Assembly: GCA_963829055.1 (NCBI GenBank)
Contig: CAWHHI010000016.1
Location: 416,001-480,000, forward strand
Length of the DNA stretch: 64,000 nucleotides
From: an uncultured Gemmatimonadaceae bacterium
GTDB taxonomy: Bacteria; Gemmatimonadota; Gemmatimonadetes; Gemmatimonadales; Gemmatimonadaceae
Direction: 5' to 3'
Shown: positions 1,144-63,472 of the stretch, in pieces
Position numbering within the stretch: the stretch's first letter is position 1
Layout of the letters: each line of letters begins with the position of its first letter
The notes under the pieces: model-generated
Databases searched by the model: none
What the model saw: only the letters and a program-made list of their open reading frames with translations
Told to the model about the DNA's origin: nothing
Program-made: the position numbers and the translations under genes

Positions 1144-3521
1144 TCAGCTGCTCTCGGTCGAAGGAGCATCGCGTCGGCCAGTGGCGTCGTCCGCCACGGC
1201 CACGCGGGTCATGATGGACGGAATCGCGTCGTGGTAGGCGCTGCGCAATCTGCTGCGACCGGCGCAACGAGCTCGCCGCCGCTGTAGCTGGATGCGGAAC
1301 GGCCGATCGGCCGCGCTCGACGACACCGATGCGCGTCGCACCGGAACGCCGTGCGCCGCGGCAATTCGCTCGACGTCTGCCGGCGAATCCGTCGAGACGA
1401 CGACGCGTGCCCTGCGCCTCGCCGAAGAGCAGCGCGCGGCGATCGAGATCTCCGGCCCACGACGACGAGATCGACGGTGGCGCTGAGCGGTCGCTCGCGG
1501 TTCGCCATCGCGCACTCGGCGAGCGCGACGGCGAGCCCGCCGTCGCTGCAGTCGTGCGCCGATGACACCACGCCGGCCTGAATCGCCTCGAGCAGCGCGT
1601 CGATCAGCGCGCCGCTCGGCCTCGAGGTCGCACGCGCGGTGGCGCACCGGCGGTGACGCCGTGAATCGCGCGCCAGATACTCGCGACGCGCCAAGCTCGC
1701 GACGTCGGCTCGCCGAGCAGGACGATCGCGTCGCCCGCCGTGCGGAACGTCGCGCGCGTGACGTGGTCGACGTCATCGACGAGGCCCACCATGCCGATGA
1801 CGGGCGTCGGGATACACCGCGCCGTTCGGACTCTCGTTGTACAGCGAGACGTTGCCGCCCGTCACCGGCGTGCCTAACGCCACACACGCCTCCGCCATGC
1901 CGCCGACCGCCTCGCGGAACTGGAAGAACACTTCCGGCCGCTTCGGATTGCCGAAGTTGAGGCAGTTCGTGATCGCCATCGGCCGCGCGCCGGTGCACGC
2001 CACGTTGCGCGCCGCCTCGGCGACCGCGATGCGGCCACCGACGCGCGGGTCGAGGTAGACGTAGCGGCCGTTGCAGTCGGTCTTCACCGCGAGCGCCTTC
2101 CGCGTGCCGCGCAGGCGAAGGACGGCCGCGTCGCCGCCGGGTCCGATCACCGTGTTCGTGCGAACCGTCGTGTCGTACTGTCGGTAGACCCACGCCTTGC
2201 TCGCGATCGTCGGCGACGAGAGCAGCTCGCGCAGCGTCCACGCGGCGTCGCGCTCCTCCGGCACGCTCCGGCGATCGCGTTCGACGTCGCGACGCGCGAA
2301 GCGCCACGATCGCGTCGCTCTCTCGCGCCTCGGGGTGATAGACGGGACAGTCAGTGACGAGACGCGAGCCCGGGAACTCGGCGACGACGCGATCGCCTTC
2401 GGTCACGCGATACACCGGCTCGGCGATGACCTCGCCGATGACCTCGGCGGTGAGATCCCATTTCGCGAGGATCGCCTTGACCTGCCGCCTCGTGTCCGCG
2501 ATGCGCGACGACGAGCATGCGCTCCTGCGATTCGCTGAGCAGGATCTCGTACGGCGTCATGCCCTCTTCGCGCACCGGCACCTTCGTCACGTCGATCGTG
2601 ACGCCAACGTCGCCGCGCGCCGCCATCTCCGCCGACGACGACGTGAGGCCGGCCGCGCCCATGTCCTGAATCGCGACGATGTGGCCGCTCGGATCAGCTC
2701 GAGCGACGCCTCGAGCAGCAGCTTCTCGGTGAACGGATCGCCGACCTGCACGCGCGGGCGCTTCGCGTCGCTCTCGTGTGAGAGATCCTCGGACGCGAAC
2801 GACGCGCCGTGGATGCCGTCGCGTCCCGTGCGCGCGCCGACGGCGATGATCGGATTGCCGACGCCCTCGGCCTTCGCGCGAATGAGATCGCGCTCGTTCA
2901 TGACGCCGACGCACATCGCGTTGACGAGCGGGTTGCGTCTCGTACGCCGGATCGAAGACGACCTCGCCGCCGACCGTCGGAACGCCGACGCGAGTTGCCG
3001 TAGTCGCCGATGCCCTTCACGACGCCGGCGAACAGGTAGCGCACGCGCGGGTGATCGAGCGATCCGAAGCGCAGCGAGTCGAGCATCGCGATCGGACGCG
3101 CGCCCATCGTGAACACGTCGCGCAGAATGCCGCCGACGCCGGTCGCCGCGCCCTGATACGGCTCGACGGCGGACGGATGGTTGTGCGACTCGATCTTGAA
3201 CGCGACGGCGAGGCCATCGCCGATCGGAATGACGCCGGCGTTCTCGCCCGGGCCCTGCAGCACGTACGGTGCCTTCGTGGGAAGCGTCCGCAGCAGCGGG
3301 CGCGAATGCTTGTAGGAGCAGTGCTCGCTCCAGAGCGCGCTGACGATCCCGAGCTCGGTGAACGTCGGCGTGCGGCCGAGCATGTCGACCAGGCGTTGGT
3401 ACTCGTCAGGCGTTAGGCCGTGCTCGGCGACGAGCGCCGGGGTGATGACGGGATCGCCAGGGCGGGGAAGTGCCGTCACGCGTTCCGCTACGTTCCGACT
3501 CGGTCTTTCTTCCGTTGCCAT
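1144..3521 (-). CDS. purL: FGAM synthase subunit PurL (frameshifted)
   Basis: [54 protein letters not shown] motifs in successive frames. Confidence 0.95.
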
Positions 3522-3560
3522 TGGCGCGCGAAAAGTTGAAGATCGTCTGGTCGACTGCGC

Positions 3561-4256
3561 TCAGACACCGACCTGGGCGAGCAGCGACTCGAACAACGCG
3601 ACACCGTCCGCGGATCCGACGACTTGCCTCGGCGGCGCGCTCGGGGTGCGGCATCAGACCGAGCACGTTTCCGCGTTCGTTGACGATGCCGGCGATGCCG
3701 CGCATCGACCCGTTCGGATCGTGCGCGATGGGTCGACTTCGCCCGTCGCGTTCACGTACCGGAACACGACCTGTCCGTTCTGCTCGAGTCGGTCGAGCGT
3801 CGCATCGTCGGCGGTGTAGCGGCCGTCACCGTGCGCGATCGGCAGGCGCAGCATCTGGCCGGCGTCGTACTGATTCGTGAAGCGCGTCTCGGTGTTCTCG
3901 ACGCGCACGCGGCAGAGCTCGCTCACGAACTGCAGGCTCGCGTTGCGCAGCAGCGCGCCGGGAAGCAGGCCCGCCTCGCACGCGATCTGAAAGCCGTTAC
4001 AGATGCCGATCACCGGACCGCCGCGATCGGCGTGCGCGATCACCTCTCGCATGATCGGCGAGAAGCGCGCGATCGCACCGGCACGGAGGTAGTCGCCGTA
4101 GCTGAATCCGCCCGGCAGGATCACGACGTCCACACCGCGCAGGTCGTGGTCCTTGTGCCAGAGGTACACGCCTTCCTGGCCGAGCACGTCGGTCACGGCG
4201 AGAAACGCGTCCTCGTCGGAGTTCGAGCCGGGGAAGGTGATGATGCCGAATTTCAT
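3561..4256 (-). CDS. purQ: FGAM synthase glutaminase subunit PurQ (frameshifted)
   Basis: [29 protein letters not shown] motifs. Confidence 0.95.
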
Positions 4257-4510
4257 GCCTGCTCCACGTTGGCGATCTCGAAGTCTTCCGTCACCGGATT
4301 CGCGAGCAGCTTCGCGCACATGTCGCGGACGACGCGCTCCGCGGACTGCGCTTCGGGCGCGTCGGCGTCGATGACGAGATGGCGGCCGACACGCACGTCA
4401 CGCACGCCGTTGAATCCGAGCGAATGCAGCGCGTCGGCCACCGCCTTGCCCTGCGGGTCGAGCAGGCCGCGCCGGGGAACGATGTGAACGGCGACGCGAT
4501 ATCGACTCAT
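4253..4510 (-). CDS. purS: FGAM synthase subunit PurS
   Basis: LDPQGKAV...[10 protein letters not shown]; about 85 aa, overlapping purQ start. Confidence 0.93.
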
Positions 4511-5520
4511 GTTCGCGATCCTCGTGCTTGGGATTGGTGGGCAGGCGGATTCGGGACGATCGCCGCGGTGCCGGCGACGCCGACGCCGCCGTCGGTTCGT
4601 CGGCTCCTGACCGTCCGCTGCCTCTCCGTTGAGCGATGCGCCAGTCGGCAGCCCGCGGCCGCACTGCATCGCTCGTGTTCGGGGAGGTCGTCAGCGAGCG
4701 TTGGATCGACATCGGCTTCTTCCTCGAGGAATACCGACCGTCGGTCGGGAACATGATCGAGGAAGCCGAGAGCCGCCCACTTCACCGCACCGAACAGCAC
4801 GTAGGCTACCAATGCGGGAAAGATAAACTCGCGGGGAAGGAAGATGAGCCCGAGAATGCTGCCGACGACGATGCGACGTGCCCACGATCTGGCGCGTCGA
4901 CCGGTAGCCGATCGTCGGCACGGCCGGATACGGCACGTCGCTGATCATGAGGTACGCGAGGCCCACCATGAGCCAGCGCAGAATCGTGTGCCAGGGCAGC
5001 TCGGCGAGCGTGCGGTTGTCGGTGAAGAAGATGACGGTGTCGTTGTACAGCGACGTCTGGCTGAACCAGTAGTACGTCGCGAGCGTCATCCCGGCGGCGG
5101 GACTCGGCAGCCCGTGGAAGTGCGTCTTCGCCCGACCAGCCTGCTCGACGTTGAACCGCGCGAGACGAATCACCGCGCACGACGCGAAGATGAAGACGTA
5201 GATCCAGTCGTTGCCGTCGGTCTTGAGCGCGGCGAAGAACATGATGAGCGCCGGGCGCGAGCCCGAACGAGATGGCATCGACGAGGGAGTCGAGCTCCTC
5301 GCCGAACCGACTGCCGGTGCCCGTCGCACGCGCGATGCGACCGTCGAGCGAGTCGGCGACGCCGCCGAGCACGATGAAGAACGCCGCGGTGCCGAAGCGG
5401 CCACGCGACGCCAGCACCACGGCGTAGATACCGCAGAACAGATTGAACAGCGTGAAGCCGTTAGGCAGCAGCACGACCGCCCGCCGGACTTCGGGCCGGC
5501 GAAAGCGCGCGCGCGTTCAT
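4507..5520 (-). CDS. pssA: CDP-diacylglycerol--serine O-phosphatidyltransferase (frameshifted)
   Basis: LPNGFTLFNL, DSLDGRIAR...FGEELDSLVDAISFG (CDP-alcohol phosphotransferase motif), RLARFNV; adjacent to psd. Confidence 0.88.
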
Positions 5521-7099: not shown

Positions 7100-8560
7100 A
7101 CGCGCACCTCGGCCACGTCCCGCAGGTCCACCGCGGGCGTGCCCGCGAGCAGCGGATCCACGATCTCGTCGAGGAACTCGTCGACCTGCTCGGCGGCGCG
7201 ACCGATGAACCGCGTCGGGTCCAGCGCGTCGCGCAGGTCGTCCGATCGGCACGCCGTACTCGGGGTCGCCGGCCAGGCGTTCGAGCATGTCGTTTCGCTT
7301 GTCCGTCGTCCTTCATGGCGCGGGCAGCCGCGACGCTGTGACGGCGAATCACTTCGTGTGCCGCCTGACGGTCGCCGCCCGCGCGCACCGCGCGCACGAT
7401 CAGGTCCTCCGTCGCCATGAACGGCAGCTCGTCGCGCGACGCGCTGGCGGATGCGCGCCGGATGCACCTCCAGGCCGCTCGCGATGTTCACCATGAGAAT
7501 CAGAATGGCGTCGGTCGGCGAGGAACGACTCGGGAATCACCAGCCGCCGGTTCGCGCTGTCGTCGAGCGTCCGCTCGAAGTACTGCACGCCGTGCGTCTG
7601 ATTGGCGTTAGGCTCGAGCGACCCGACGAACCGCGCGAGCGACGCGATGCGCTCGGCGCGCATCGGGTTGCGCTTGTACGCCATCGCCGACGATCCGATC
7701 TGCTCGGACTCGAACGGCTCCTCGATCTCGCCGAACGCCTGCAGCATGCGGATGTCGCTGCCGAACTTCGCCGCGCGACGCCGCGACGCCGGCGACGACG
7801 CCGAGCACCTGCGCGTCGAGCTTCCGCGTGTACGTCTGTCCGGTGACGGCGAGCGAGTGCGTGAAGTCCATCGCCGCGGTCACGCGACGGTCGAGCTCGC
7901 GGACCCGCTCGTGGTCGCCGTCGAACAGCTGGAGGAAGCTCGCCTGCGTCCCGGTCGTCCCCTTCACGCCGCGAAACGGCAGCGTCGCGCGGCGGTAGTC
8001 GAGGTCCATCGAGGTCGAGCACGAGATCCTGCATCCAGAGCGTCGCGCGCTTGCCGACGGTCGTGAGCTGCGCCGGCTGGAGATGCGTGTAGCCTAGCGT
8101 CGGCTCGTCCCGCCACTCGCGCGCGAACGCCGCGAGCGCGCGCAAGCGCGGTGATCAACCGCCCGCGCAGCAGATCGAGCCCGCGGCGCATGAGGATCAG
8201 GTCGGCGTTGTCGGTGACGAACGCGCTGGTCGCTCCGAGGTGGATGAACGGCTTCGCCGCCGGCGCCACGTCGCCGAACGCGTGGACGTGCGCCATGACG
8301 TCGTGACGGAACCGCCGCTCGTAGGCGGCGACCGCCGTCGAAGTCGATGTCGTCGAGATGCGCCCGCATCTGCGCGATCGCCTCGTCGGGAATCGGAACG
8401 CCGAGCGCCTGCTCGGATTCGGCGAGCGCGAGCCAGAGCTGGCGCCAGAGGCCGTAGCGCGTCGCGGCGGACCAGAGCCGTAGCATCTCGGCGCGACGCG
8501 TAACGCTCGGCGAGCGGGGAGCTGTATTGCGTGAGCCGTTGATCGATCGATGGTCGTCAC
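7096..8560 (-). CDS. purB: adenylosuccinate lyase (frameshifted)
   Basis: [46 protein letters not shown]. Confidence 0.93.
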
Positions 8561-11568: not shown

Positions 11569-12885
11569 ATGTCTTCGCGGAACCTTCCCTCGCTCGCGCA
11601 CGCCCTGAGCGTCGCGCCCGACTACGATGCTGCCCTGGTCGCACTCGGCGAAGGTCTCGCCGACGTCGACCGCACCGCACACCTCGGGCTGCTTCGCTAC
11701 GACGCGCGCCGGGAGATGCTGCGCGAGCGCCTGACGCCGCAACGGCGGGCGAGTCACGAAGACGCCAGTCGAGACGACGTTCGACCATCTGCCGGCGACC
11801 GATCCGCATGCAGGTCGCAGCCGGCGGGCAGTTCGTCGACCTCGGCGACCGATCGGCGGAGTACGCGCGCATGTTCAGCTTTCCGCCGTTCCCCGACGGC
11901 GGGATTCTGTCGCTGCGCGGCGTCCACGTCGACGGCTGTCTCGCGGCGGTCGTCGCGCTGTACGAGCAGAAGAAGATGTTCGGCACGCGGTCCGTCGAAC
12001 GCTTCGCGCCATTCGTCGCGTTGTTCGAGCTCGGGTACGCGCGGCTGGCCGAGCGCGAGGCGCGCGACGAGGCGGTGCGCACGCTCGAGGACGTCACGCA
12101 GCGCGTCCACGGCGAGTACGTGCGTCGGCTCGCGGAGCTCGAGCACGAGCTCATTCGCGCAAGGGACGAAGCCCGAGCGCCGACGAGCGATGAGGTGTCC
12201 GCTCGCATCGTCGCGCTCGAGCGCGAGGTCGCGAAGGCGAACGAGCAGGCGCGCAAGGCGAAGCGCCACTCCGATGAGATCGAAGGACACGTCACCGCCG
12301 CCGTGAGCCAGCTCGAGCAGGCGCACGTCGAGCTGCATCGACGCAGCGAGTCGCTTCGCCAGCGGACGCGAACGCTCTATCTCATCGAGCGCGTGCTCAA
12401 GCTCGACGCGACCGTCGCGGACCCCAGGCAGCTCGTCGACGGTCTGCTCGCACTCGTCGGCGACGACATGCAGGCGCAGCGCTGCTCGCTCATGCTCGTC
12501 GCCCCGGAGCCCGGGTACATCTTCCTGGCTGCGTCGCGCGGCCTCGCGCCGTTCATCGCCGAGGGCTCACGGATCAGGATCGGGCAGGGCGTCGCCGGCC
12601 GCGTCGCGCAGGCGCGCGAGCCGCTGCTCGTGCAGGACGTCAGGCAGGCGACGTCGCACCCGCTGCTGCTCGACCAGCATTTCACGACCGGCTCGTTCAT
12701 CAGCTTTCCGCTGGTCTATCAGGGTGAGCTGGTCGGCGTCGTGAACCTGACGAATCGCGCGCAGTACGGCGTGTTCGTGGACGAGGACCTCGAGCGTGTG
12801 CAGGCTCCTGGCGCTCGTCATCGCGCTCGTCGCCACGAACGCGTCGCTCGCGACGCGGCTCGTCGAGTCGATCGGCGCGCGTTAG
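11569..12885 (+). CDS. GAF-domain / coiled-coil protein (frameshifted)
   Basis: Long heptad coiled-coil, then a C-terminal GAF (GQGVAGRVAQAREPLLVQDV, SFISFPL, VGVVNL). Confidence 0.7.
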
Positions 12886-12896
12886 GCGTACGCCGA

Positions 12897-15498: not shown

Positions 15499-16151
15499 GA
15501 TCAAGTTCTGCGGGCTGACGCGCGCAGACGGACGCGGCAGTTCGCCGCGTCGTTAGGCGCCGTCTACGTCGGCGTCATTTTCGCCGAGAGTCCGCGCCGC
15601 GTCGACCCGGGGCACGCGACCGCGGTGCTCGCCCGGCGTCGCGAGAGCGGGCAAGCACCGTCGGCGTGTTCGGTCCGGCGACCGTCGAGACCGATCGCGA
15701 CGATCGCCGCCGAGGCGGCACTCGACGTCGTGCAGCTTCACGGCGACCCGTCGCCGGGCGATCGTGGAGCGCATGCGACCGTTCTTCGGCGGCGAGGTCT
15801 GGGCCGTGGTCCGCATCGCCGGCGCGGAGCTGCCGGACGGACGCCGCGCGCGCTCCTCGCCGTGGCCGACGCCGTCGTGCTCGATGCGAAGGTGGCCGGG
15901 CGCAGCTCGGCGGCACGGGCACGGCGTTCGACTGGGACGGCGATCGCGCGAACACTCGACCGCGCAACGCGTTCGCGCGCGCGTCGTGCTCGCGGGCGGG
16001 TTGAATCCGGAGAACGTCGCACACGCCGTACGCATCGTCGCTCCCGACGTCGTCGATGTATCATCCGGCGTCGAGAGCGCACCCGGAATCAAGGACCACG
16101 CACGGATGCGCGCCTTCCGCGACGCCGTGCGACGACGAGGAGAGACGCTGA

Positions 16152-17386: not shown

Positions 17387-19099
17387 CGCTTTCTTCCGTT
17401 CCGACTCCCGCCCAGGAGTCGGGTCGGCCCGAACCGCCGTTTTCGAGCACTCTCGTCGAGGAGATGCTCAAGAGTTCTCGTGAAGGCGGCCCGGGCCCAC
17501 CAGCTCTATCTGCACAACAATCCCACGTACCTGCGCGCGCTCGATATCGCCCGCGCGGCGTTCGCGCCCATCTGGGAAGTGACGGACGAGCTGGTGTTCG
17601 ACGTCACCGAGACGGAACTCCGGTGGCACGGCGAGGCGGTGCTGCGACGAGCCGGAGAAGGCGACCGACAACATCCCGTGGATGATGTACAAGGACGGGA
17701 TTCGCGAGCTGCGCCTGCTCAAGGAGTTCGAGCGCGACGAGCTCGTCCCGCTGCTCGACATCCTCCAGCGCGTCGCGCAAGGTCTCGCCGGAAGAGGACG
17801 ACCTGCTGACGATGCTCTGGGAGCAGGAGTTCTCGTATCTCCGCTATCGCTACATCGATCTCTCGACCGATCAGGCCGCGCCGATCGACAAGGCGGGGTT
17901 CCGCGGTGGCGAGGCCGGCGCGCAGGCGACTCCAGGAATCCGCGCCGCCGATCGACTCGACGGTCGTCGTCCGTCGTCAACCTCGAGGACTTCGACTCCA
18001 CGCTGTACTTCCTCGAGGAGAGCGAGGTCGAGTACCTCCGCGAAGAGGTGCGCAAGGAGTACGAGATCGACATGCGACGAAACGTCGTCGCGATGCTGCT
18101 CGACACGTACGAGACGCAGGGCGATCGCGGCGTGCGCGAGGAGATCGCCGGCGCTGCTCGACACGCTGATGCTGCACATTCTCTCGTCGGGCGAGTTCAA
18201 GACCGCGGCGTTCCTGCTCCGCGAGACCGCGCAGACGTGCCGAGCGCGCGCCGGGGATCACGCCGGAGCAGAAGGAGCAGCTGCTCCGCATTCGCGAATC
18301 GGCTCGAGCGAGCCCGAGGTGCTCGCGCAGCTCCTGCAGTCGCTCGACGAGGCGTCGCAGCTGCCCGACCAGGAGGACCTGAACGAGCTGTTCGACCAGT
18401 TGCGCGTCAGCGCGCTCGCGACGGTGTTCTCGTGGCTCACGAAGGCGCAGACGCCGCGGCTTCGCGTGCTGCTCGAGAACGCGGCGGCGCGCCTCGCCAT
18501 GGCGAACACCGCGGAGCTCGTGCGGCTCATCGGCTCGAGCGACCGCGACGTCGCGCGCGAGGCGATCCGCCGCGCCGGCGCCGTCACGCGCGACGGCCGC
18601 GGTCGCCGCGCTGGCGAAGCTGACGACCGATCCCGACGTGCAGATGCGCCTCGCCGGCGGTGCAGGCGTTAGGCGAGATCGCGTCGCCCGGCGCGCTGCA
18701 GTTTCTCGAGCGGACCATCGACGACGCGCATCGCGACGTCCGGGTCGCGACCGCGCGCGCGATCGCGGCGCGCGCGCATCGCCCGGCGCTGGCCGAAGAT
18801 CGAGGCCGCCATCAAGGGCAAGCTCGCCAGCGACGCCGACCTCACGGAGAAGATGGCGTTCTTCGAGGCATTCGGGACGCTCTGCGGCGACGGCGGCGTC
18901 AAGCTGCTCGACGGCATGCTCAACGCGCGCGGGCTGTTCGGCAAGAAGGAGGACCCGGAGCTGCGCGCCTGCGCCGCCATGGCGTTAGGCCGCAGTCGGC
19001 AGCGAAGCGGCCATCGCGACGCTGCGGCGCGCCGCCAACGAGAAGGAGGTGCTCGTCCGGAACGCCGTGAACCGCGCGCTGCGCGGAGGCACGGCATGA
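17383..19099 (+). CDS. HEAT-repeat protein (frameshifted)
   Basis: Helical repeats (VQALGEI, DVRVATARAI, LRACAAMALG, VRNAVNRAL) at the C-terminus. Confidence 0.7.
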
Positions 19100-25713: not shown

Positions 25714-26284
25714 GTGGCGATCATGTCGCCGCCGACGGTCACGGCCTCGGAGCATCGGGCTGCCGGCATGGGCGCAGGTCACGGAGAAGCGGCGCGCGCA
25801 CATTGCGCGCGTCACCGCCTGCTGGATCAGTGGGCCGGCATCGCTCGGCCTTGCCGCCGGACGAGCGGCAGGCGTGGCACGACGTCGGCGTGCTTCACGA
25901 CGCGCTTCGCGACGCCGCGGAGGAGGAGCTCCGGCGTCTGACGGGTGACACGCGATCGCCCAATGCACATCCTGCACGGGCCCGCTGTGGCCGAGCGCCT
26001 CGACGCGGGAAGGGGAGGCGCGGCCGGACGTGCTCGAGGCGATCCGCTGGCACACGTTAGGCAGCGCACACTGGGCGCGCACCGGGAAGGCGCTCTACAT
26101 GGCCGACTTTCTCGAGCCCGGCCGTCCGTTCTCGCGCGCTGACCGCGCGTTTCTCGCCGCGCACGTGACGACCGACTTCGACGGCGTGTTCCGGCAGGTG
26201 GTGCGGACGCGCATCGAATGGACGGTGCGGGAAGGGAAGATGCTGTTTCCCGAAACCGCCGATCTCTGGAACACCGTCCGATGA
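25710..26284 (+). CDS. HD-domain hydrolase, YqeK-like (frameshifted)
   Basis: LHDA, ILHG, IRWHT, YMADFLEPGR motifs. Confidence 0.7.
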
Positions 26285-26728
26285 AGCCACGCGCTCGATG
26301 GTTGATCGCCGCGCATCATCGTGCTCGCGGCCGGTGGTGGCGTCGCCGCCGTTGCCTGGCGTCGCCCGCTCCCGGTTCGTTCGACACGCGCTCGGTCGTC
26401 TCGTCACTCCAAGGCGCACGGCGCCGCGCGAACACGCGCGTGCGCGTCGAGATCATCAACGCGACGCGGACACGCGGCCTCGCTCGTCGCGCGACCCGTT
26501 TGCTGCGGGACCGCGGGTTCGACGTGGTGACGTTCGGGAACAGCGACACGACGCAGGACTCGACGGTCGTGCTCGACCGCACGAATCACGCGGAGTGGGC
26601 GCAGGCTGGTCGGCAAGGCGTTAGGCGGGGCGCGCGTCGAGGCGCGCCCGGACACGTCACGCTACGTGGACGTCACCGTGGTGCTCGGCGCCGCGTGGCG
26701 GCCGCCGCCGCAGCCGTTCAGCCCGTAG
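26281..26728 (+). CDS. LytR C-terminal domain protein (frameshifted)
   Basis: VRVEIINAT...GLARR...LRDRGFDVVTFGN...DVTVVLG. Confidence 0.75.
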
Positions 26729-47417: not shown

Positions 47418-49496
47418 TGTTGATGGAGAAGGCCCGCGCCACGTTGCGCGAGTCGTTCGGCTACCCGGGATTCCGCCCCGGACAGGAGCGCGCGATCGCC
47501 TCCGTCCTCGGCGGCCGAGACACGCTCGTCGTGCTGCCTACCGGCGGTGGGAAGTCGCTGTGCTACCAGGTGCCCGCGCTGATGCTGCCGGGACTCACCG
47601 TCGTCGTGTCGCCGCTGATCTCGCTCATGAAGGATCAGGTCGACGCGCTGAACGCACGCGGTCTCGCCGCGACATTCATCAACAGCACGCTCACGAGCTC
47701 ACAGGTCTCCGATCGCCTCGCGCGCGCCGGGCGTGGTGACCTCAAGCTGCTGTACGTCGCGCCGGAGCGCTTCGACGTCGGCACTACGGCCGAGCGGCTG
47801 CGAGCCATGGGCGTGTCGCTACTGGCCGTGGACGAGGCCCACTGCATCAGCGAGTGGGGCCACGACTTCCGGCCGAGCTATCTGCGCATGCGCGACGTGC
47901 GCGAGCGGCTCGGCGCGCCGCCCACTATCGCGCTGACGGCGACGGCGACGCCCGAGGTCCGCAAGGACATTGCGCTGCAGCTCGCACTGCGAAATCCCGA
48001 GCATCATCGTCACGGGCTTCGATCGCACGAACCTGCACTATCACGTGCTGCCCACGCGCAACGAGCAGGAGAAGGACGACGCGCTGGTGCAGACCCTGAA
48101 GGACCACGAGGGCGTCGCCGTCATCTACGCGTCGACGCGACGCAACGTCGAACGGATCGCCGGAGTTCTGGAGCGCGCGCGCATGTCGGCGACGGCATAT
48201 CACGCGGGACTCGATGACGCACACCGGCACGACGTGCAGGAAAGCTTCATGAACGAGCGCGTCCGCGCGATCGTCGCCACGAACGCGTTCGGCATGGGCA
48301 TCGACAAGCCTAACGTGCGACTCGTGGTGCATCACGCGATGCCGGGCACGCTCGAGGCGTACTACCAGGAGGCCGGTCGTGCCGGCCGCGATGGGCAGCA
48401 CTCCGAGTGCGTGCTGCTTCACTCGTTCCCGGACCGGTTCACGCACGAGTTCTTCATCAAGGGTGCGTACCCCGAGCGCGCGCTCGTGGAGTCGGTCTAC
48501 AACGCGCTGCGCCGAGTCGTGGATGGTTCGGGCATGACCGACCTCGGCTCCGCGGAGATTGCGAGGCTGGTTCCCGGCAAGGTCGGCGACCGCGAAGTCG
48601 ACTCCGTGCTTCGTATTCTGATGAAGGCCGACGCCGTACGCCGCGAGTCCGAGTCGGGATCGTCCGTGCTCATTCGACTGCTGGCTACGCCAGAGCGCAT
48701 CAAGCGCGAACTGCCCGATCCGCACAACCCGGAGCTTGGATTGCTGCGCGCGCTCTGGCGTGCCGTCGGCGCCCGCCTCCATGACGGCGCCGTTGTGAGC
48801 CTGGACGGGCTTCCACCCGGGTTCAGCGGGGCGAGTACCGCCATTCCCCTGCTGTCCTCACTGCAGTCACGGCAGTTCCTGACCTGGGAGCGCATTGGCG
48901 GCGGCACTCGCCTCACGAACCCGAGCGCACCCTTGTCGTCCTTCGACGTGGAGTGGGCAGTGCTCGATCGGCGACGCCGTGCTGATCTCGCAAAGCTCGA
49001 TGCCATGCAGAAATACGCGTACACGACCGGTTGCCGCCGCGCCTTTGTTCTTCGATATTTCGGTGACGAAGCCGGTCGGGGAACCTGCGGCGGTTGCGAT
49101 AACTGCCTTGGCGTCCACGTCGGCAAGGAGCGTCAGCAGCCGGCACCAGCCCGAACGCGTCGTGAGAAGGCGGCGCCGGTAGCGGGCAGCCGAGGTTCGG
49201 CTCGACCGCGAAGTGCGCAGGCCGATCCGGAGCCTGGAACGGACCTGGTGCTGGACGGTGCGGACGCGAGGCTGTTTGCCACGCTGAAGTCCCTTCGAAG
49301 CTCGATCGCGCGCGAGGAGAAGGTCCCGGCATACGTGGTGTTCTCCGACCGTACGCTGGCCGAGTTGGCTGCACGAAAGCCGCGATCGACAGCGTCACTG
49401 CTCGAGGTGCGCGGTGTAGGACAGGCGAAGTTGGACAAATACGGCGAGCGATTCCTCGCCGCCATCAAGGGCGCAGACGAAACCGAAGCCGCGTAA
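47418..49496 (+). CDS. recQ: RecQ-family DNA helicase (one frameshift near 48.0 kb; start approximate)
   Basis: PTGGGKSLCYQ, DEAHCISEWGHDFRP, QEAGRAGRDG, CRR...CGGCDNC, C-terminal HRDC. Confidence 0.92.
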
Positions 49497-49549: not shown

Positions 49550-50767
49550 ATGGACGATTCTCTGTATTTCAGCGAGCAACACCTGGCGGTTCGCGAGATG
49601 GTTCGCGGCTTCGCCCAGGACGAGGTGGCTCCTGTCGCGTCGCAGCTGGACGAGCGCGCCGAGTTTCCCTGGGAAAACATCAAGAAGATGGGCGAGCTCG
49701 GACTCCTCGGCGTGCCGTGGTCCGAGGAGCTCGGTGGCGCGGGTCTCGACTACATCGCCTACATGATGGCGATCCACGAGATGGCGAAGGTCGACGCTTC
49801 GCACGCCATCACCATCTCGGCCCACACGACACTGGGCACGTCGCCCATCGTCCACTTCGGAACGCCTGCGCAGCGCGAGCGCTACGTGCCGTTGCTGGCC
49901 TCGGGCAAGGTGCTCGGTGGGTTCGGTCTCACAGAGGAAAGCGCGGGCAGCGACGCTGGCGGCACGCGGACGATGGCCGTGCGGAAGAACGGCCACTACG
50001 TCCTGAACGGATCGAAGCGCTTCATCACGCACGGCGGTGTCGGTGAGATCTTCGTCGTTACGGCCGTCACCGACCCGAAGAAAGGAACGAAGGGCATCTC
50101 CTCGTTCATCATGACGAAGCCGACGTCCGACCTGCAGAAGGCTGCGGCGGTCGGGGTCGGGCACGACGCCTCGCTTCCGGCCATGGCTGGATTCAGATCG
50201 GGGAAGAAGGAAGACAAGCTCGGATGGCGTGCGTCGGACACGTGCGAGCTGATCTTCGAGGACGTCGAAGTACCGGTCGAGAACCTGCTCGGCAAAGAGG
50301 GGCAGGGGTTCATCAACTTCATGCGGACGCTCGACGCCGGCCGCATCGGCCTCGCGGCACTCTCGTTAGGCCTGGCCGAGGGCGCGTTCGAGCAGGCCAT
50401 GCGGTATGCGACCGTTCGCCGTCAGTTCGGCAAGCCCATCTTCGAATTTCAGGGCCTGCAGTTCCAGCTGTCGGACATGGCCACGGAGATCGAAGCGGGG
50501 AAGCACCTCATGTATCACGCGGCCTGGCTTGCGCAGCATGGCAAGCCGTTCACGAAGCAGGCGGCCATGGCGAAGCTGTTCTGCTCCGAGGTCGCGATGC
50601 GGACCACGCTCAAGGCCATTCAGGTGCACGGCGGGTACGGATACACGCGCGACTACCCGGTCGAGCGGATGATGCGCGATGCAAAGATCTGCGAGATCGG
50701 CGAGGGAACGTCGGAGATCCAACGCCTCGTGATCGCGCGGAGTCTCCTGCGGGAGATGGCTGATTGA
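49550..50767 (+). CDS. acyl-CoA dehydrogenase (short/branched-chain type)
   Basis: [43 protein letters not shown]. Confidence 0.93.
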
Positions 50768-54826: not shown

Positions 54827-56173
54827 CTACGGCTTGCGATAAGCAGGAGGATAGGTCTTATACCGCTGCATCAACTCGTCCTGACGCGACGGTTGCGCGA
54901 CTTCACGGCCACGAATGAGAACGTGCTCCACCTTGGTCGTGAACTCGAACGGGTCGCCGCTCCACACCACGATGTTCGCGTCACGACCAGGCTGCAGGGA
55001 CCCAATGCGGTTCGCCACACCGAGCATCTCCGCCGGCGAGAGCGTGATCGAGCGCAGCGCAGCATCCCACGGAAGCCCGTAGGCGACCGCGACACCGGCG
55101 TCGTACTTCAGGTTGCGGACGTTGAACCCTTCCTCTCCGCTGCCATTCCCGATCAGCACCACCTTTGCGCCCGCGCGCTGCAGCAGCGCCGCGGCATCCT
55201 GCCGGTTGCCTAACGTCGAGAAGCTCTGCGGAAGGTTGTCCATCGACCCCACGATCACCGGGATCCCCGCCGCTGCCAGCCGGTCAGCCAGCTTCCACGA
55301 CTCTGCAGCCCCGACGATGATGAGCTTGACGTTCATCTCCTTGGCGAGCCGCATGATGGCGTCGATGTCACTCGACTGATCGACGTTCACCATGAGCGGC
55401 AGCCTTCCCTCGACGACGGGAATCAGCGCCTCCAGATCCGCCCGCCGCGCCGCGAATGCGCGCGTTTGTGCCCGCTCGAATTCCGAGCGGCGGCGGGCGT
55501 AAATGCGCGCGTCCTCGAGGACCTCCTTGAGTCGCACGTACTGCTCGCCGCGCGCGTTCGATCCCGCCGACCGCGGGTCGCCGAACTGTGCGACCATCGC
55601 GACCGGCGCCTTGTCGAGCATGTCCGAGAGCGTGCCTGGTACGAGATCGATGAGTGCCGCCTGTCCGGCAATGAGACCGCCGGTCGGCACGACGACCACG
55701 GACGTGACCCCGTCGTTCCGCGCCGGGGCGAACATCGTCGACGCGGGGTTGATGCCTTCCCACACCGGGAACGACGCCGCGATGCCGCTGTCTCCGCGCG
55801 CGCTGCGATCGACCGTGGCCTGAACCGCGTTGATTTCGGCCACGCCGAGGGAGGTGAGCGAATTGATGAGTCCCGGCGTAACCCACTTGCCCGTCGCGTC
55901 GATGCGAGTGGCGCCGTTAGGCACCGTGACGTTCGCGCCGACGGCGACGATCTTCCCATCGCGTACGAGAACCGTCCCGTTCTCGATCACCGGCCCGCTC
56001 ACCGGGTGAACCTTCCCGCCGGTGATGGCGATCGTCTGCGCGCCGGCACGCTCGGCGGTCGAGAGCAAGAGCGCGGCGACGGCAGCCAGCGCCGCGGTTC
56101 CGACCACGATTCTCGCGATTGCCGATTTCTGCCGCCCGCCGGCGGCGGGCACCCGCCCGATTCGCGTCGTCAT
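54827..56173 (-). CDS. exported amidohydrolase-family protein (degenerate metal site)
   Basis: Signal peptide, IDATGKWVTPGLI, GSLQPGRDANIVVWSGDP; HxH replaced by SLTS. Confidence 0.85.
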   Translation of the reverse strand: MTTRIGRVPAAGGRQKSAIARIVVGTAALAAVAALLLSTAERAGAQTIAITGGKVHPVSGPVIENGTVLVRDGKIVAVGANVTVPNGATRIDATGKWVTPGLINSLTSLGVAEINAVQATVDRSARGDSGIAASFPVWEGINPASTMFAPARNDGVTSVVVVPTGGLIAGQAALIDLVPGTLSDMLDKAPVAMVAQFGDPRSAGSNARGEQYVRLKEVLEDARIYARRRSEFERAQTRAFAARRADLEALIPVVEGRLPLMVNVDQSSDIDAIMRLAKEMNVKLIIVGAAESWKLADRLAAAGIPVIVGSMDNLPQSFSTLGNRQDAAALLQRAGAKVVLIGNGSGEEGFNVRNLKYDAGVAVAYGLPWDAALRSITLSPAEMLGVANRIGSLQPGRDANIVVWSGDPFEFTTKVEHVLIRGREVAQPSRQDELMQRYKTYPPAYRKP

Positions 56174-57630
56174 CGTGCACCCCCGTTAGGCAGCGGAACG
56201 TTCCCGAGCTCGAAGTCCGTACGCCACCAGGACGCCGGGTTTGCGCGATCGTACGCCGCCGCGCCATCGAGCCACACCCGATCGACGCGTGAGTACACGC
56301 TGAACGGGTTGCCGGACCACAGCACAACGTCCGCGTTCTTGCCCACCTCGATGGATCCGATCTTGTCGTCGAGACCGAGCGCCCACGCCGGGTTGATCGT
56401 GAGCCACTTGATCGCTTCGTCCTCCGTCGTGTGGATCCCGATCTGTTCACCCGCGGCCATGGCCTTCGCCGCATCCTGGTTCAGACGCTGCATCCCGGAC
56501 GGATCATCGGAGTGCACGATCGCGCGGGCACCTGCCGCGCTCACCATGGCGAGGTTCGCGCGCACGCCATCCATCGCCTCCATCTTGAACCCGCCCCAGT
56601 CCGACCAGAGCGACGCGGAGATCCCTTCCTTCGCCAGGCGATCGGCGACCTTGTACGCCTCCACGCCATGGTGGAACGAGCGAATCTTGTAGCCGAACTC
56701 CTTGGCGATGTCGATCATCTGCACCATCTCGTCGGCGCGGTAGCAGTGGTTGTGCACCAGGATGTTGCCGCGCAGGACTTCCGCGAGCGTCTCGAGCCCG
56801 AGATCGCGCTGCGGAGGATCGCCCTGATGGTCGGCGTTCCACTTGTCCCACCGACGGCGATAGCCTTCCGCCTGGATCCATGCGGCGCGATATCCCGCCA
56901 CGTTCCCCATGCGCGTCGACGGCCCGCGTTGCGCGTACACGCGCTTCGGATTCTCGCCGCACGCCATCTTCAGGCCGTATTTCGCGCCCGGGAATTTCAT
57001 TCCCTGGACCGAGGCGGACGGGACCACCTTCAGCACCACGCTCCGTCCGCCGATCAGATTCCCCGACCCTGGAAGGATCTGAACGGTCGTCACGCCGCTC
57101 GCGAGCGCTCGCGGGAACTGCGGATCCTGCGGCCACACCGAGTGCTCGGCCCACACGTTCGCCGTCACAGGGTTGGTGAGCTCGTTTCCGTCGGACAACG
57201 CGTCGCCACCGGGGGCTGCGTACACGCCCAGGTGTGAGTGGTCGTCGATGACGCCGGGAGTGAGAAACTTGCCGCGACCGTCGATGACGTCTGCATCCGG
57301 GGGAGCGCTCACAGTCGTCCCGACCGCGGCGATCTTGCCATCGCGGAGCAACACACTGCCGTTCCGAATCGTCGGCCCGGCGGCCGTCATGATGGTCACG
57401 TCGCGAATCAGCGTTGCTCGTGATTGCGGAATGGCGTACGTGCTCGGGAATGGATCGGCGTTAGGCGCCGAGATCGCCCCGGCACCGGGGGCCGGGCGAC
57501 CCGTGTCTGCGCGGGCTCCAGCGGGTGCGGCCGGGCGTGGTTGCGTCGAAGGCGCGGTCTGCGCAGGAGCGCATCCCTCGAGAGCGACGACTACAGCCGC
57601 CGCGAGAGCGACGGCACGTTGAATTCGCAT
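56170..57630 (-). CDS. amidohydrolase-family lipoprotein
   Basis: Lipobox-like LEGC, PGVIDDHSH, KMACGENP, HNHCY, HHG, HSDD. Confidence 0.88.
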   Translation of the reverse strand: MRIQRAVALAAAVVVALEGCAPAQTAPSTQPRPAAPAGARADTGRPAPGAGAISAPNADPFPSTYAIPQSRATLIRDVTIMTAAGPTIRNGSVLLRDGKIAAVGTTVSAPPDADVIDGRGKFLTPGVIDDHSHLGVYAAPGGDALSDGNELTNPVTANVWAEHSVWPQDPQFPRALASGVTTVQILPGSGNLIGGRSVVLKVVPSASVQGMKFPGAKYGLKMACGENPKRVYAQRGPSTRMGNVAGYRAAWIQAEGYRRRWDKWNADHQGDPPQRDLGLETLAEVLRGNILVHNHCYRADEMVQMIDIAKEFGYKIRSFHHGVEAYKVADRLAKEGISASLWSDWGGFKMEAMDGVRANLAMVSAAGARAIVHSDDPSGMQRLNQDAAKAMAAGEQIGIHTTEDEAIKWLTINPAWALGLDDKIGSIEVGKNADVVLWSGNPFSVYSRVDRVWLDGAAAYDRANPASWWRTDFELGNVPLPNGGAR

Positions 57631-61644: not shown

Positions 61645-62763
61645 ATGCACCAACTCCGAATCGCCCAAGTCACCGAGTATTACTACCCGCACCTCGGCGG
61701 CATCTGCGAGCACGTCCATTTCCTGGCGCGTGAGGCGGCGCTCCGGGGTCATCACGTCGACATCATCACGTCGAACCTCGACGGTGCGCGCGACACGCCG
61801 AATGTGATCCGCGTCGGCCAGAGCGTACCGGTCTACAGCAACGGGTCACTCGCGCGCATCACCGTCGGGCGCGGACTGCGCCGCCAGGTCAGAGAAGTGC
61901 TCTCGCGCGGGCAGTACGACATCGTTCACGTGCATGCACCGCTCGCTCCGTCGCTCCCACTGCTAGCGGTAGATGAGGCCGAGTGCCCCGTCGTTGGGAC
62001 GTTTCATACGTATTTCGACTACTCGGTAGGCTATACTCTCGGCCGTCGCTACTTTCAGCGACGGCTGTCTCGTCTCGCCGCCGCGGTGGCCGTGTCACCG
62101 ACCGTCGTCGAAGCGCACGAGCGTTACTTCTCGACTGACTGGACCCATATCCCGAACGGCGTGGACACGCACTTCTTCTCGCCTGACGCGCCGCGTCCGC
62201 TCGCGATCCGACCCGACGTGCCCTCGATCCTGTTCCTCGGGCGCTTCGATCCGCGCAATGGGCTCGCCTCACTCATGGATGCGTTCAAACGCATTCGTGG
62301 CCCAAGCCGGCCGGCGCAGCTCGTGGTGGTAGGCGATGGCCCCCTTCGAGCGCACTACCGGCGTCTCGCGGCCGGCGACCCGGACATCACGTTCGTCGGG
62401 TCGGTGCTGGGTGAGCGTCCCGACTTCTACGCGAACTGTTCGATCTACGCCTGCCCAACGACCAAGGCGTCCTTCGGTATTACGCTGCTCGAGTCGATGG
62501 CGTGCGGCACGCCGATCGTGTGCTCCGACATCAACGGCTTTCGCAACGTGGTGGCGCACGACCGCGAAGCGTTGCTCGTTCCGTGCGGCGACACAGGCGC
62601 CCTCGCCGATACGTTGGCGGCGCTCCTGGATGACGACGCATCGCGCGCACGCCTCGGAGCGGCTGGCCGGCAGCGCGCGCTGGCGTACGGCTGGCCGCGC
62701 GTGAGCGACACGATTCTGGGCCTCTACGCCCAGATCCTCGGCGTGAACCGTCTGGCCGCGTGA
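61645..62763 (+). CDS. GT4 glycosyltransferase (PimA-like)
   Basis: YYPHLGG, DIVHVH, IPNGVD, FLGRFDPRNG, SFGITLLESMACG. Confidence 0.9.
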   Translation: MHQLRIAQVTEYYYPHLGGICEHVHFLAREAALRGHHVDIITSNLDGARDTPNVIRVGQSVPVYSNGSLARITVGRGLRRQVREVLSRGQYDIVHVHAPLAPSLPLLAVDEAECPVVGTFHTYFDYSVGYTLGRRYFQRRLSRLAAAVAVSPTVVEAHERYFSTDWTHIPNGVDTHFFSPDAPRPLAIRPDVPSILFLGRFDPRNGLASLMDAFKRIRGPSRPAQLVVVGDGPLRAHYRRLAAGDPDITFVGSVLGERPDFYANCSIYACPTTKASFGITLLESMACGTPIVCSDINGFRNVVAHDREALLVPCGDTGALADTLAALLDDDASRARLGAAGRQRALAYGWPRVSDTILGLYAQILGVNRLAA

Positions 62764-62779
62764 GCACAACGGGAGACCG

Positions 62780-63472
62780 GTGATCGGCGCCATCGCTTCG
62801 GTCACGGCGCTGTCCGCGGGCGCGCTCGCGTGGGGGGCTTACGAGCGAAATAGCCCGCTGTTCGGTCGCGTCCAGCACCGACTCGCCACGACGGACGCCG
62901 TCATCAGCCTGACGTTCGACGATGGGCCGAACTCGCGAGCCACACCGGCAATCCTCGACGCGTTAGGCGCCGAAGGCGTGTGCGCGACGTTCTTCGTGCT
63001 CGGCCGGCATGCGGATCGGTGGCCTGAGCTCGTCGACCGTGCCGCGCGCGAAGGGCATCGCATCGGCAATCACGGGTACTACCATCGGAAGCTCACCTGG
63101 AAAGCTCCGAGCTACGTCCGTGACGATATCTCTCGTGGCGCCGAGGCGATCGAGAGAGCGGGTGCTGCGCGTCCGGGGTTGTTCCGCGCACCACACGGAC
63201 AACGGAACCCGTGGGTGACTCCAATCGCGCGAACGCTCGGCCAGCGAACGATCGGCTGGACGCTCGGCGTGTGGGACACGGCGCGGCCTGGCTCGGACGT
63301 CATCGCGGATCGTGTCATTCGCGGTGCGGATCGCGGGTCGATCGTCTTGCTGCACGACGGCGACGGCTACGATGCCGACGGCGACCGCATGCAGACGGCG
63401 GACGCGCTCCCACGCATCATTCGTGGGCTCCGAGCGAGAGGGTTTACATTCGCGACGCTCGCGGCGACGTGA
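62780..63472 (+). CDS. polysaccharide deacetylase (NodB/CE4)
   Basis: LTFDDGP, ATFFVLG, IGNHGYYH, FRAPHG, IVLLHD. Confidence 0.92.
   Translation: MIGAIASVTALSAGALAWGAYERNSPLFGRVQHRLATTDAVISLTFDDGPNSRATPAILDALGAEGVCATFFVLGRHADRWPELVDRAAREGHRIGNHGYYHRKLTWKAPSYVRDDISRGAEAIERAGAARPGLFRAPHGQRNPWVTPIARTLGQRTIGWTLGVWDTARPGSDVIADRVIRGADRGSIVLLHDGDGYDADGDRMQTADALPRIIRGLRARGFTFATLAAT

What the first reader, a model, noticed from the sequence alone, without database searches (positions are those of the whole stretch)
1872..62968. Strand-polarised, highly iterated octamer CGTTAGGC written into coding sequence: candidate Chi/KOPS/matS/uptake-type chromosomal signal
Seen (manual count, may be incomplete): at least 17 exact CGTTAGGC on the + strand (3411, 5459, 7606, 12880, 15551, 18667, 18983, 21670, 26055, 26619, 34463, 45724, 50364, 55915, 56184, 57459, 62961) versus 4 in reverse as GCCTAACG (1872, 32618, 48308, 55208). 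One-mismatch copies lie at 31849, 46451, 59490, 59520, 60600, 60843, 60853 and 63950. A crude mononucleotide estimate assuming about 70% GC gives only about 2 copies over both strands. Most TTAG/CTAA tetramers I noticed sit in this motif. Polarity ignores gene direction: in + genes it reads as the rare codon pair TTA-GGC (Leu-Gly), in - genes as CCT-AAC (Pro-Asn) or CTA-ACG. Rare synonymous codons are thus used to spell it, which points to DNA-level selection. Known analogues are Chi, KOPS, matS/SBS/NBS, DNA uptake sequences and HIP1. I know of no such motif described for this lineage (inference).
Basis: partly seen in the sequence, partly recalled or inferred. Interest (0 to 1): 0.85.

Follow-up and report, generated by a model that had tools for sequence, protein, structure and literature searches.

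The report
Hyper-abundant genome word in Gemmatimonadaceae
This soil bacterium has written the eight-letter word CGTTAGGC about 5,000 times into its genome, on both strands alike and against its own codon habits, much like the DNA "self tags" of Neisseria and Haemophilus, but what reads the word is unknown.

Summary
The counts are right. The window holds 17 + and 4 - exact CGTTAGGC (shuffles give 0.73). The strand polarity is a chance tail. The genome (a Gemmatimonadaceae MAG, 7.78 Mb) has 2547 forward and 2457 reverse copies. Orientation does not follow GC skew (51.6%). Of 212 windows of 64 kb, 2 are this skewed and 2.1 are expected.

The word itself is real and remarkable:
- It is the top over-represented octamer: 5004 copies against 100-300 expected.
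- It has no conserved flanks and avoids the stop-codon frames.
- It takes 45% of Leu codons in xCG-Leu-GGC against 0.9% elsewhere.
- It is kept at orthologous sites in six congeners: 50% against 15% for control words.
- It stands in short-read contigs of four other studies.
- Copies repel each other. Permissive sites within 100 bp of a copy are filled at 14%, those at 400-1600 bp at 64-67%.
- About 55 of 201 Gemmatimonadaceae are rich in it, and none of 92 genomes from other families of the phylum.
- Relatives show dialects, CGTTTGGC and CGTTATGC.

The best fit is a DNA-uptake-type self tag, with an unproven reader. Chi, KOPS and Vsr-type repair fit poorly. The word equals the integron attC core, but IntI does not track it. 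This scan noted the same word before in other genomes.

The parts
1872..1879 (-). exact word; reads GCG TTA GGC (A-L-G) in a - strand ORF
3411..3418 (+). exact word; antisense reading GGC CTA ACG in a - ORF
5459..5466 (+). exact word; GCC GTT AGG CAG in a + ORF (frame call weak)
7606..7613 (+). exact word; GCG TTA GGC
12880..12887 (+). exact word; GCG TTA GGC in the GAF / glycosyl-transferase-3 ORF
15551..15558 (+). exact word; CGC CTA ACG in a - ORF (frame call weak)
18667..18674 (+). exact word; coding frame uncertain
18983..18990 (+). exact word; GGC CTA ACG in a - ORF (frame call weak)
21670..21677 (+). exact word; GCG TTA GGC
26055..26062 (+). exact word; ACG TTA GGC
26619..26626 (+). exact word; CCG CCT AAC GCC in a - ORF
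32618..32625 (-). exact word; TGC CTA ACG in a + ORF
34463..34470 (+). exact word; an 11.3-kb gap without the word follows
45724..45731 (+). exact word in the peptidase U32 ORF; not kept in the 2 congeners aligned there
48308..48315 (-). exact word; AAG CCT AAC GTG; kept in 6 of 6 congeners
50364..50371 (+). exact word in the acyl-CoA dehydrogenase gene: TCG TTA GGC = S-L-G. Kept in 5 of 6 congeners. 73 of 80 related species encode S-L-G here, nearly all with CTC or CTG.
55208..55215 (-). exact word; ACG TTA GGC in the - amidohydrolase ORF; kept in 3 of 4 congeners
55915..55922 (+). exact word; GTG CCT AAC GGC in the - amidohydrolase ORF; kept in 3 of 4 congeners
56184..56191 (+). exact word; CTG CCT AAC GGG; kept in 0 of 4 congeners (two have CGTTCGGC)
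57459..57466 (+). exact word; GCG CCT AAC GCC; kept in 4 of 4 congeners
62961..62968 (+). exact word; GCG TTA GGC

Best explanation
CGTTAGGC is a strand-neutral, lineage-specific genome word of part of the Gemmatimonadaceae. A DNA-level force keeps about one copy per few hundred to 1,500 bp. It acts on double-stranded DNA segments, not on RNA, protein or the replication fork.

The mechanism I think most likely is that of DNA uptake sequences (DUS and USS). A component of the competence machinery (type IV pilus or periplasmic DNA receptor) binds the word. Fragments that carry it are then taken up and recombined more often. The word therefore spreads by molecular drive into every place where proteins tolerate it, mostly through synonymous changes, until each fragment-sized segment has one.

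Shown here: abundance, strand neutrality, synonymous writing, conservation at orthologous sites, mutual repulsion of copies, dialects in relatives, absence from a foreign segment, and presence of the competence genes. Inferred: that uptake is the reading step, and which protein reads the word.
For: 1. Abundance. 5004 copies against 102-297 expected under order 0-3 Markov models, and the top octamer under both order-2 and order-3 nulls. Flanks are not conserved.
2. Strand neutrality. 2547 forward to 2457 reverse. Sense to antisense in called genes is 1610:1406. 51.6% point to the G-rich strand.
3. Coding respected. Flanks with concordant strong GC3 phase number 845 and 304 in the two open phases and 24 in the stop phase.
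4. Synonymous writing. TTA is 1157 of 2551 Leu codons in xCG-Leu-GGC, against 1415 of 155,230 elsewhere. CCT-AAC is 832 of 1118 in xxG-Pro-Asn-Gxx. Dipeptide frequencies equal those of the word-poor G008. The acyl-CoA dehydrogenase S-L-G site is TCG TTA GGC only in word-bearing lineages.
5. Maintenance. At 78.5% DNA identity, 65 of 131 sites are exact in congeners, against 714 of 4602 phase-matched control octamers.
6. Segment-wise saturation. Short gaps are depleted: 30 against 160 expected below 50 bp. Occupancy of permissive sites rises from 36 of 251 within 100 bp of another copy to 604 of 900 at 800-1600 bp.
7. Dialects. G010 has CGTTTGGC 925 times (control 110) and CGTTAGGC 605 times. 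G030 has CGTTATGC 315 times (control 30).
8. Foreign DNA lacks it. A 49.6-kb stretch of C6 has none. It holds a second trp operon that is only about 70% like anything in 30 relatives.
9. Competence kit. ComEC in 31 of 31 genomes; PilQ secretin, PilM, DprA and a ComEA-type HHH domain in 5 of 5.
Against: No uptake experiment exists, and no member of this group is known to be transformable. My search listing gave no such paper.

The competence genes are equally present in word-poor relatives, so they do not discriminate. No receptor was found. One candidate pilin has orthologues only within the genus and not in the word-rich G014.

The word has no flanking consensus, unlike USS. It forms no inverted terminator pairs, unlike many DUS: among pairs within 100 bp, FF 18, RR 23, FR 16, RF 14.

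Mutual repulsion and conservation would fit equally well with any reader that needs one site per segment. Counts across relatives are not independent.
Confidence: 0.4

Rival explanations
1. The word is the binding site of an unknown chromosomal dsDNA-binding protein. This could be a nucleoid organiser, a repair loading site or a self marker that restrains a defence nuclease. Such a reader needs roughly one site per few hundred bp and works in either orientation.
For: Strand neutrality, mutual repulsion of copies, conservation at orthologous sites, tolerated variants at positions 1, 6 and 8, and a patchy distribution among genera that suggests a reader gained and lost.
Against: No candidate protein was found. 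Known nucleoid and segregation sites are longer, fewer, regional or palindromic (recalled). Density is about the same in called genes (0.57 per kb) and in the rest (0.79 per kb), so it shows no link to promoters.
Confidence: 0.25
2. The word is a neutral by-product of a context-specific mutation or repair bias, as proposed for HIP1 and for Vsr-type very-short-patch repair. It piles up without any reader that uses it.
For: Abundance, synonymous writing, and the depletion of some synonymous neighbours: CGCTAGGC is 104 against about 255 expected, CGTTGGGC 254 against about 434.
Against: A bias acting base by base should fill sites independently. Instead, occupancy falls to 14% next to an existing copy. 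Vsr (PF03852) was found in 0 of 9 word-rich or intermediate genomes and in 3 of 22 word-poor ones. The C-to-T variants TGTTAGGC and CGTTAGGT are enriched 15-17 fold rather than depleted. The word is not a palindrome.
Confidence: 0.1
3. The word is a Chi-like recombination hotspot. It tells RecBCD or AddAB to stop degrading DNA and load RecA, and so marks self DNA.
For: Chi sites are short, over-represented, lineage-specific words written into genes (recalled). A foreign segment lacks the word.
Against: All known Chi sites are co-oriented with replication (recalled). Here orientation is 51.6%, and no contig is skewed. The density, one per 1.5 kb, and the 17-49-fold enrichment are far above what Chi shows (recalled). 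RecBCD and AddAB were not examined.
Confidence: 0.07
4. The word is linked to integrons. It is spelled exactly like the conserved 3' end of attC sites (the R' core GTTAGGC plus the preceding C). It may act as decoy or landing sites for the integron integrase. Or the uptake reader may have evolved to grab cassette DNA.
For: Cassette arrays in word-poor relatives and in G000 itself end each attC with ..CGTTAGGC. IntI can insert cassettes at genomic GWT sites (bioRxiv 10.1101/2022.09.11.507474, passages read).
Against: IntI above its cut-off occurs in 18 of 31 relatives, both word-rich and word-poor, and was not found in the word-bearing G002, G004 and G010. Genome-wide copies lack any attC flank. 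The tolerated variants (T at position 6; T or G at position 8) do not follow GTTRRRY, while variants that do follow it (CGTTAAGC, CGTTAGAC, CGTTGGGC) are not enriched.
Confidence: 0.05
5. The word is a polar chromosome signal (KOPS or SRS type), or an assembly or base-calling artefact.
For: Only the 17:4 split in this window. The assembly does carry frameshift-like errors.
Against: There is no polarity genome-wide. The word is present in six congeners assembled into 260-1170 contigs. Contigs from four independent studies cover five of the six copies between 48001 and 58000 in the listed pieces. None of the 40 listed differences falls in a copy; 252 further differences were not shown. The stop-codon frames are avoided.
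Confidence: 0.02

Closest known systems
DNA uptake sequences: DUS of Neisseriaceae and USS of Pasteurellaceae (together DUES)
   Same: A short non-palindromic word at about one copy per kb, equal on both strands. It is written into genes where proteins allow, spaced more evenly than chance, shared at orthologous sites by related species, and shows lineage dialects. Foreign DNA lacks it and competence genes are present. The paper on DUS dialects is PMC3630211 (search listing and abstract start only).
   Different: The phylum is different (Gemmatimonadota). The word is only 8 bp, without the flanking consensus of USS. There is no excess of inverted terminator pairs, unlike DUS. No receptor has been identified and uptake has never been tested. 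Enrichment is 17-49 fold, against the hundreds-fold I recall for DUS and USS.
HIP1 (GCGATCGC) of cyanobacteria
   Same: A hyper-abundant octamer inside genes in all open frames, conserved among relatives, of unknown function (recalled).
   Different: HIP1 is a palindrome and has been tied to methyltransferases (recalled). This word is asymmetric, and no Vsr partner was found.
Chi and KOPS
   Same: Short, over-represented, lineage-specific words written into coding sequence.
   Different: Both are strongly co-oriented with replication (recalled). This word is not.
Integron attC R' core (GTTRRRY; attC ends ..CGTTAGSC, recalled)
   Same: Identical spelling. Real attC arrays in this order end in CGTTAGGC.
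   Different: The 5004 copies are isolated octamers at synonymous sites of ordinary conserved genes, without attC structure. IntI presence does not track them.

Membership tests
DNA uptake sequences (DUS/USS) | Short word hugely over-represented genome-wide, on both strands alike | tested here: met
   5004 copies against 102-297 expected; 2547 forward to 2457 reverse
DNA uptake sequences (DUS/USS) | DNA carrying the word is taken up preferentially by competent cells | not testable with these tools
   Needs an uptake or transformation assay
DNA uptake sequences (DUS/USS) | Competence machinery encoded (ComEC, DprA, ComEA, type IV pilus) | tested here: met
   ComEC in 31 of 31 genomes; PilQ, PilM, DprA and HHH_3 in 5 of 5. 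They are equally present in word-poor genomes.
DNA uptake sequences (DUS/USS) | Cognate receptor (a minor pilin such as ComP) | tested here: inconclusive
   Five pilin-like ORFs were found. The one tested has orthologues only in the genus and not in the word-rich G014.
DNA uptake sequences (DUS/USS) | Spacing more even than chance; dialects in related lineages | tested here: met
   spacing; CGTTTGGC in G010, CGTTATGC in G030
DNA uptake sequences (DUS/USS) | Frequent inverted pairs acting as terminators (a DUS trait) | tested here: not met
   Pairs within 100 bp: FF 18, RR 23, FR 16, RF 14
Chi | Co-orientation with replication | tested here: not met
   1627 of 3153 (51.6%) point to the G-rich strand
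Chi | Recognition by RecBCD or AddAB | not tested
   No search made; an enzyme assay is needed
KOPS / FtsK-orienting sequences | Strong skew that switches at ori and dif | tested here: not met
   Across the GC-skew switch on C16 near 550 kb: 158:111 before, 187:209 after. Every contig is near 50:50.
HIP1-type iterated palindromes | Palindromic word | tested here: not met
   CGTTAGGC differs from its reverse complement GCCTAACG
HIP1-type / very-short-patch repair drive | Partner methyltransferase and Vsr-type endonuclease | tested here: not met
   Vsr in 0 of 9 word-rich or intermediate genomes. Methyltransferases were not tested.
Integron attC / attI sites | R' core embedded in an attC (R'', L'', L' boxes, hairpin), arrayed in one orientation beside intI | tested here: not met
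   True for the arrays in L093-L098 and at G000 C20:200,400-207,200. Not true for the genome-wide copies.
Integron attC / attI sites | Co-occurrence with the integron integrase | tested here: not met
   IntI above its cut-off in 18 of 31 genomes, regardless of word richness

The most novel reading that the evidence does not exclude
Part of the Gemmatimonadaceae runs a third, independently evolved DNA-uptake self-tag system, outside the Proteobacteria. Its tag is spelled exactly like the universal 3' core of integron attC sites. If so, every gene cassette in the environment would be pre-tagged for uptake by these soil bacteria. That would couple natural transformation to cassette capture, while the same reader drives the word into their own genes.
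Probability: 0.06. Interest if true: 0.92.

Novelty: new variant of a known kind. Interest (0 to 1): 0.72.

Why it matters
Self-tag words that steer DNA uptake are known from only two proteobacterial families, and the function of HIP1 is still open after decades. Here a whole block of an abundant, mostly uncultured soil family carries an equally strong signal. About 55 of 201 sampled genomes have it, up to one copy per 0.8 kb.

The signal has measurable rules. Half to three quarters of the synonymous opportunities are filled. Copies repel each other below about 400 bp. Relatives show dialects, and close relatives differ sharply: G124 has 66 copies, and three congeners have 3,479-4,141.

It also gives a way to ask whether transformation with self-preference shapes soil bacterial populations. 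In practice the word marks native against foreign or mis-binned DNA in these MAGs, and it inflates rare-codon counts.

Tried and rejected
- **Polarity.** Rejected by contig totals, the neighbour test, the GC-skew test and the window distribution.
- **Apparent all-plus runs in other genera.** The listing suggested them. The fetched stretches were mixed, 25:20, 27:23, 23:34 and 19:24, so it was a listing effect.
- **Maximal-order Markov ranking.** It is blind to a saturated word. Low-order models were used instead.
- **Dense same-strand runs in G021, G019 and G029.** They are not repeat genes but integron cassette arrays.
No phyletic link and a different tolerance pattern.
- **Vsr drive.** Vsr was not found in word-rich genomes.
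- **A pilin as shared receptor.** Its orthologues are confined to the genus.
- **Another word in word-poor genomes.** A 400-kb sample of G008 showed no hyper-abundant 8-mer or 10-mer.
- **Local clusters that might flag a regulator.** At most 8 copies in any 3 kb.
- **Literature.** A search for the word itself found only primers and the like. 'Gemmatimonadetes' plus 'DNA uptake sequence' gave 0 papers. Listings for Gemmatimonad plus transformation and for uptake sequences showed nothing on this word.
- **Technical.** timed out and was redone with numpy.

Full report
**Observation.** Dinucleotide shuffles give a mean of 0.73 and at most 5. The eight cited one-mismatch copies exist among 57 such hits. 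21 of the 33 TTAG/CTAA tetramers in the window lie in the word. The window is G000:C16:416001-480000 of a 7.78-Mb, 20-contig genome with 66-67% GC. Relatives found with the window's acyl-CoA dehydrogenase are all Gemmatimonadaceae or Gemmatimonadales MAGs. Many ORFs match only parts of Pfam domains, so the assembly probably carries indel errors.

**Genome-wide abundance.** There are 2547 forward and 2457 reverse copies, or 5004 in all, about one per 1.56 kb. Markov models of order 0 to 3 expect 297, 131, 102 and 258. The word ranks first among all octamers under both order-2 and order-3 nulls. Positions outside the eight letters show only codon periodicity and a mild G preference on either side. 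These are therefore isolated octamers, not pieces of a longer repeat. 5004 of the 8933 TTAG/CTAA tetramers in the genome are in the word.

**Polarity is not real.** Every contig is close to 50:50. Adjacent copies share a strand in 2589 of 4984 cases. Orientation towards the locally G-rich strand is 1627 of 3153, or 51.6%. On C16 the GC skew changes sign near 550 kb; the counts are 158:111 before it and 187:209 after it. Among 212 overlapping 64-kb windows, 2 reach binomial p<0.01 (2.1 expected) and 12 reach p<0.05 (10.6 expected). This window (p=0.0072) is the second most skewed. It is also poor in copies, with 21 against a mean of 40.9. The listing seemed to show long all-plus runs in other genera, but the fetched DNA was mixed: 25:20, 27:23, 23:34 and 19:24.

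**Not an artefact.** The six other genomes of the genus, assembled into 260-1170 contigs, carry 2,501-5,112 copies each. The stretch 48001-58000 is held by runs of 16 studies. Contigs from four of them cover five of its six copies in the listed pieces. None of the 40 listed differences lies in any of the six copies; 252 further differences were not shown. The stop-containing reading phase is almost empty. Flanks with concordant strong GC3 phase number 845 and 304 for the two open phases and 24 for the stop phase. With my crude ORF/GC3 gene calls (5115 ORFs covering 67.6% of the genome), the frames are xCG-TTA-GGC 1145, CCT-AAC-G 824, xGC-CTA-ACG 564, GTT-AGG-C 454 and stop frames 29. A further 1988 copies lie outside called ORFs.

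**Written against codon habit, mostly synonymously.**
- In the context xCG-Leu-GGC, TTA is 1157 of 2551 Leu codons (45%), against 1415 of 155,230 (0.9%) elsewhere.
- In xxG-Pro-Asn-Gxx, CCT-AAC is 832 of 1118 (74%).
- 1157 of the 2584 TTA codons in called genes lie in the word.
- Frequencies of the dipeptides L-G, P-N, L-T and V-R equal those in a 400-kb sample of the word-poor relative G008.
- At window position 50364 the acyl-CoA dehydrogenase reads TCG TTA GGC. 73 of 80 related species encode S-L-G there, mostly as TCG CTC GGC or GGG. Only L013, L029 and L035 share TTA GGC.

**Maintenance.** In 339 kb of pairwise alignment with six congeners (78.5% identity), 65 of 131 G000 sites are exact in the relative. 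Phase-matched flanking octamers are exact in 714 of 4602 cases. In the other direction the figures are 65 of 119 against 608 of 4135. The pairs are not independent. Within the window, sites 48308 (6 of 6), 50364 (5 of 6) and 57459 (4 of 4) are kept, while 56184 (0 of 4) and 45724 (0 of 2) are not.

**Copies repel each other.** Gaps below 50 bp number 30 (160 expected), 50-100 bp 41 (155) and 100-200 bp 144 (296). Gaps of 400-1600 bp are in excess. The direct test looks at sites where the word could be written synonymously:

| Distance to nearest other copy | Sites carrying the word |
|---|---|
| under 100 bp | 36 of 251 |
| 100-200 bp | 114 of 329 |
| 200-400 bp | 365 of 707 |
| 400-800 bp | 689 of 1082 |
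| 800-1600 bp | 604 of 900 |
| 1600-3200 bp | 161 of 315 |
| over 3200 bp | 20 of 85 |

. A base-by-base mutation or repair bias would not know about neighbours. A reader that needs one word per segment would. Close pairs show no preferred relative orientation.

**Foreign DNA lacks it.** The largest gap is C6:5440-55037, 49.6 kb at 69.9% GC. It holds a second tryptophan operon and other housekeeping genes. It matches the 30 relatives only at about 70% identity and only over single genes. The native trpB copy, syntenic with the congeners, lies inside this window at about 16218-17269. The segment is either acquired or mis-joined.

**Distribution.** In 201 sampled Gemmatimonadaceae genomes, about 55 have at least three times the reversed-word control, by my hand count from the table. 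The highest are 7821 copies in 6.1 Mb (G205) and 6360 in 5.1 Mb (G014). Most of the others are depleted, for example 6 against 107. Within genus g56, G124 has 66 copies and three congeners have 3,479-4,141. None of 92 genomes from 11 other families of the phylum exceeds its control. G030, from another family, does, with 345 against 147. These tallies include genomes flagged as unpublished: G013, G051, G052 and G150, and G255 and G282. None of them is singled out by any claim here. 70 of 80 related species loci around the dehydrogenase gene hold no copy.

**Dialects.**

| Genome | CGTTAGGC | CGTTTGGC (control) | CGTTATGC (control) |
|---|---|---|---|
| G000 | 5004 | 156 (203) | 583 (142) |
| G010 | 605 | 925 (110) | 236 (110) |
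| G030 | 345 | 36 (93) | 315 (30) |

. In G000 the enriched one-letter variants are CGTTAGGT (827), CGTTATGC (583), TGTTAGGC (435) and CGTTAGGG (428).

**Candidate readers.**
- ComEC is in 31 of 31 relatives. The PilQ secretin, PilM, DprA and a ComEA-type domain are in 5 of 5 genomes tested, word-rich and word-poor alike.
- One small pilin (C11:105384-105806) has orthologues only within the genus.
- Vsr was found in none of the nine word-bearing genomes of the relatives set.

**Integron link.** In word-poor relatives nearly all copies sit in same-strand runs spaced 500-650 bp. Each copy ends a conserved element..GCGCCGCAGCTTAAGCGC(N5)CGTTAGGC. There are no long ORFs and no tandem repeat, so these are cassette arrays. 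G000 has its own intI (C20:208041-208958) and an array at about C20:200,400-207,200. The word is thus spelled like the attC 3' core; that this core is GTTRRRY is recalled. However, IntI occurs in 18 of 31 relatives irrespective of word richness, the genome-wide copies have no attC flanks, and the tolerated variants differ from GTTRRRY. IntI can insert cassettes at genomic GWT sites (bioRxiv 10.1101/2022.09.11.507474, passages read). The link stays a curiosity with a small chance of meaning.

**Literature and earlier notes.** I found nothing in print on this word (listings only). Uptake sequences are described there for Neisseriaceae and Pasteurellaceae only. Three earlier notes of this scan report the same word in other Gemmatimonadaceae genomes, with DUS and USS as the closest known kind. 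One of them also notes the integron spelling. They were leads; every figure here is my own.

**Verdict.** The word is a real, strong, DNA-level, segment-wise signal. A DUS/USS-type uptake self tag is the best-supported mechanism (0.4). An unknown chromosomal binding protein is next (0.25). Repair bias, Chi and integron readings are weaker.

Noticed in passing
G000 C20:200,400-209,000 (outside the window): A chromosomal integron. intI (TIGR02249, 265.7 bits, at the cut-off) lies at C20:208041-208958 on the - strand. About 5-7 cassettes lie downstream on the same strand, with attC ends such as ..CTGCAGCTGAACTCATGCGTTAGGC. intI and the cassettes are co-oriented.
   Followed up: partly
L093/L094 (G021:C95:1-24000), L095 (G019:C3), L096 (G029:C1), L097, L098: Integron cassette arrays in word-poor Gemmatimonadales. 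Copies of ..GCGCCGCAGCTTAAGCGC(N5)CGTTAGGC are spaced 500-650 bp, all on one strand, with no ORF of 400 aa or more in the first 20 kb. Same-strand runs in the listing (G265, G268, G299) look alike.
   Followed up: partly
window 47197-47330, 53344-53465, 54695-54821: Three intergenic long-hairpin repeats, MITE- or REP-like (fold energies -86 to -111 kcal/mol). The first family (TGTCATTCCGAGCG...CGCTCGGAATGAC) lies at 181 places in the genome, the others at 19 and 8. None holds the word. They explain the other top k-mers (ATTCCGAG, TCGGAATGA).
   Followed up: partly
G000 C6:5440-55037: A 49.6-kb stretch without the word (about 32 copies expected), at 69.9% GC. It holds a second trp operon and a BamD-like gene and is only about 70% like any of 30 relatives. 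It is either a large acquired island or a chimeric join in the MAG.
   Followed up: partly
window 38671-39747, 42369-44054, 4691-6172 and others: ORFs match only parts of Pfam domains (for example MM_CoA_mutase 168-287 of 512) and run on in other frames. Contigs from other studies show single-base indels against the window (51607, 53438/53442, 55903/55909). Frameshift errors or strain differences are likely.
   Followed up: no
G124 against G066, G166 and G198 (genus g56): One species has 66 copies of the word, and three congeners have 3,479-4,141.
   Followed up: no
window 16218-17269: The native trpB copy lies in the window. It is 72% identical to the copy in the word-free C6 segment.
   Followed up: no
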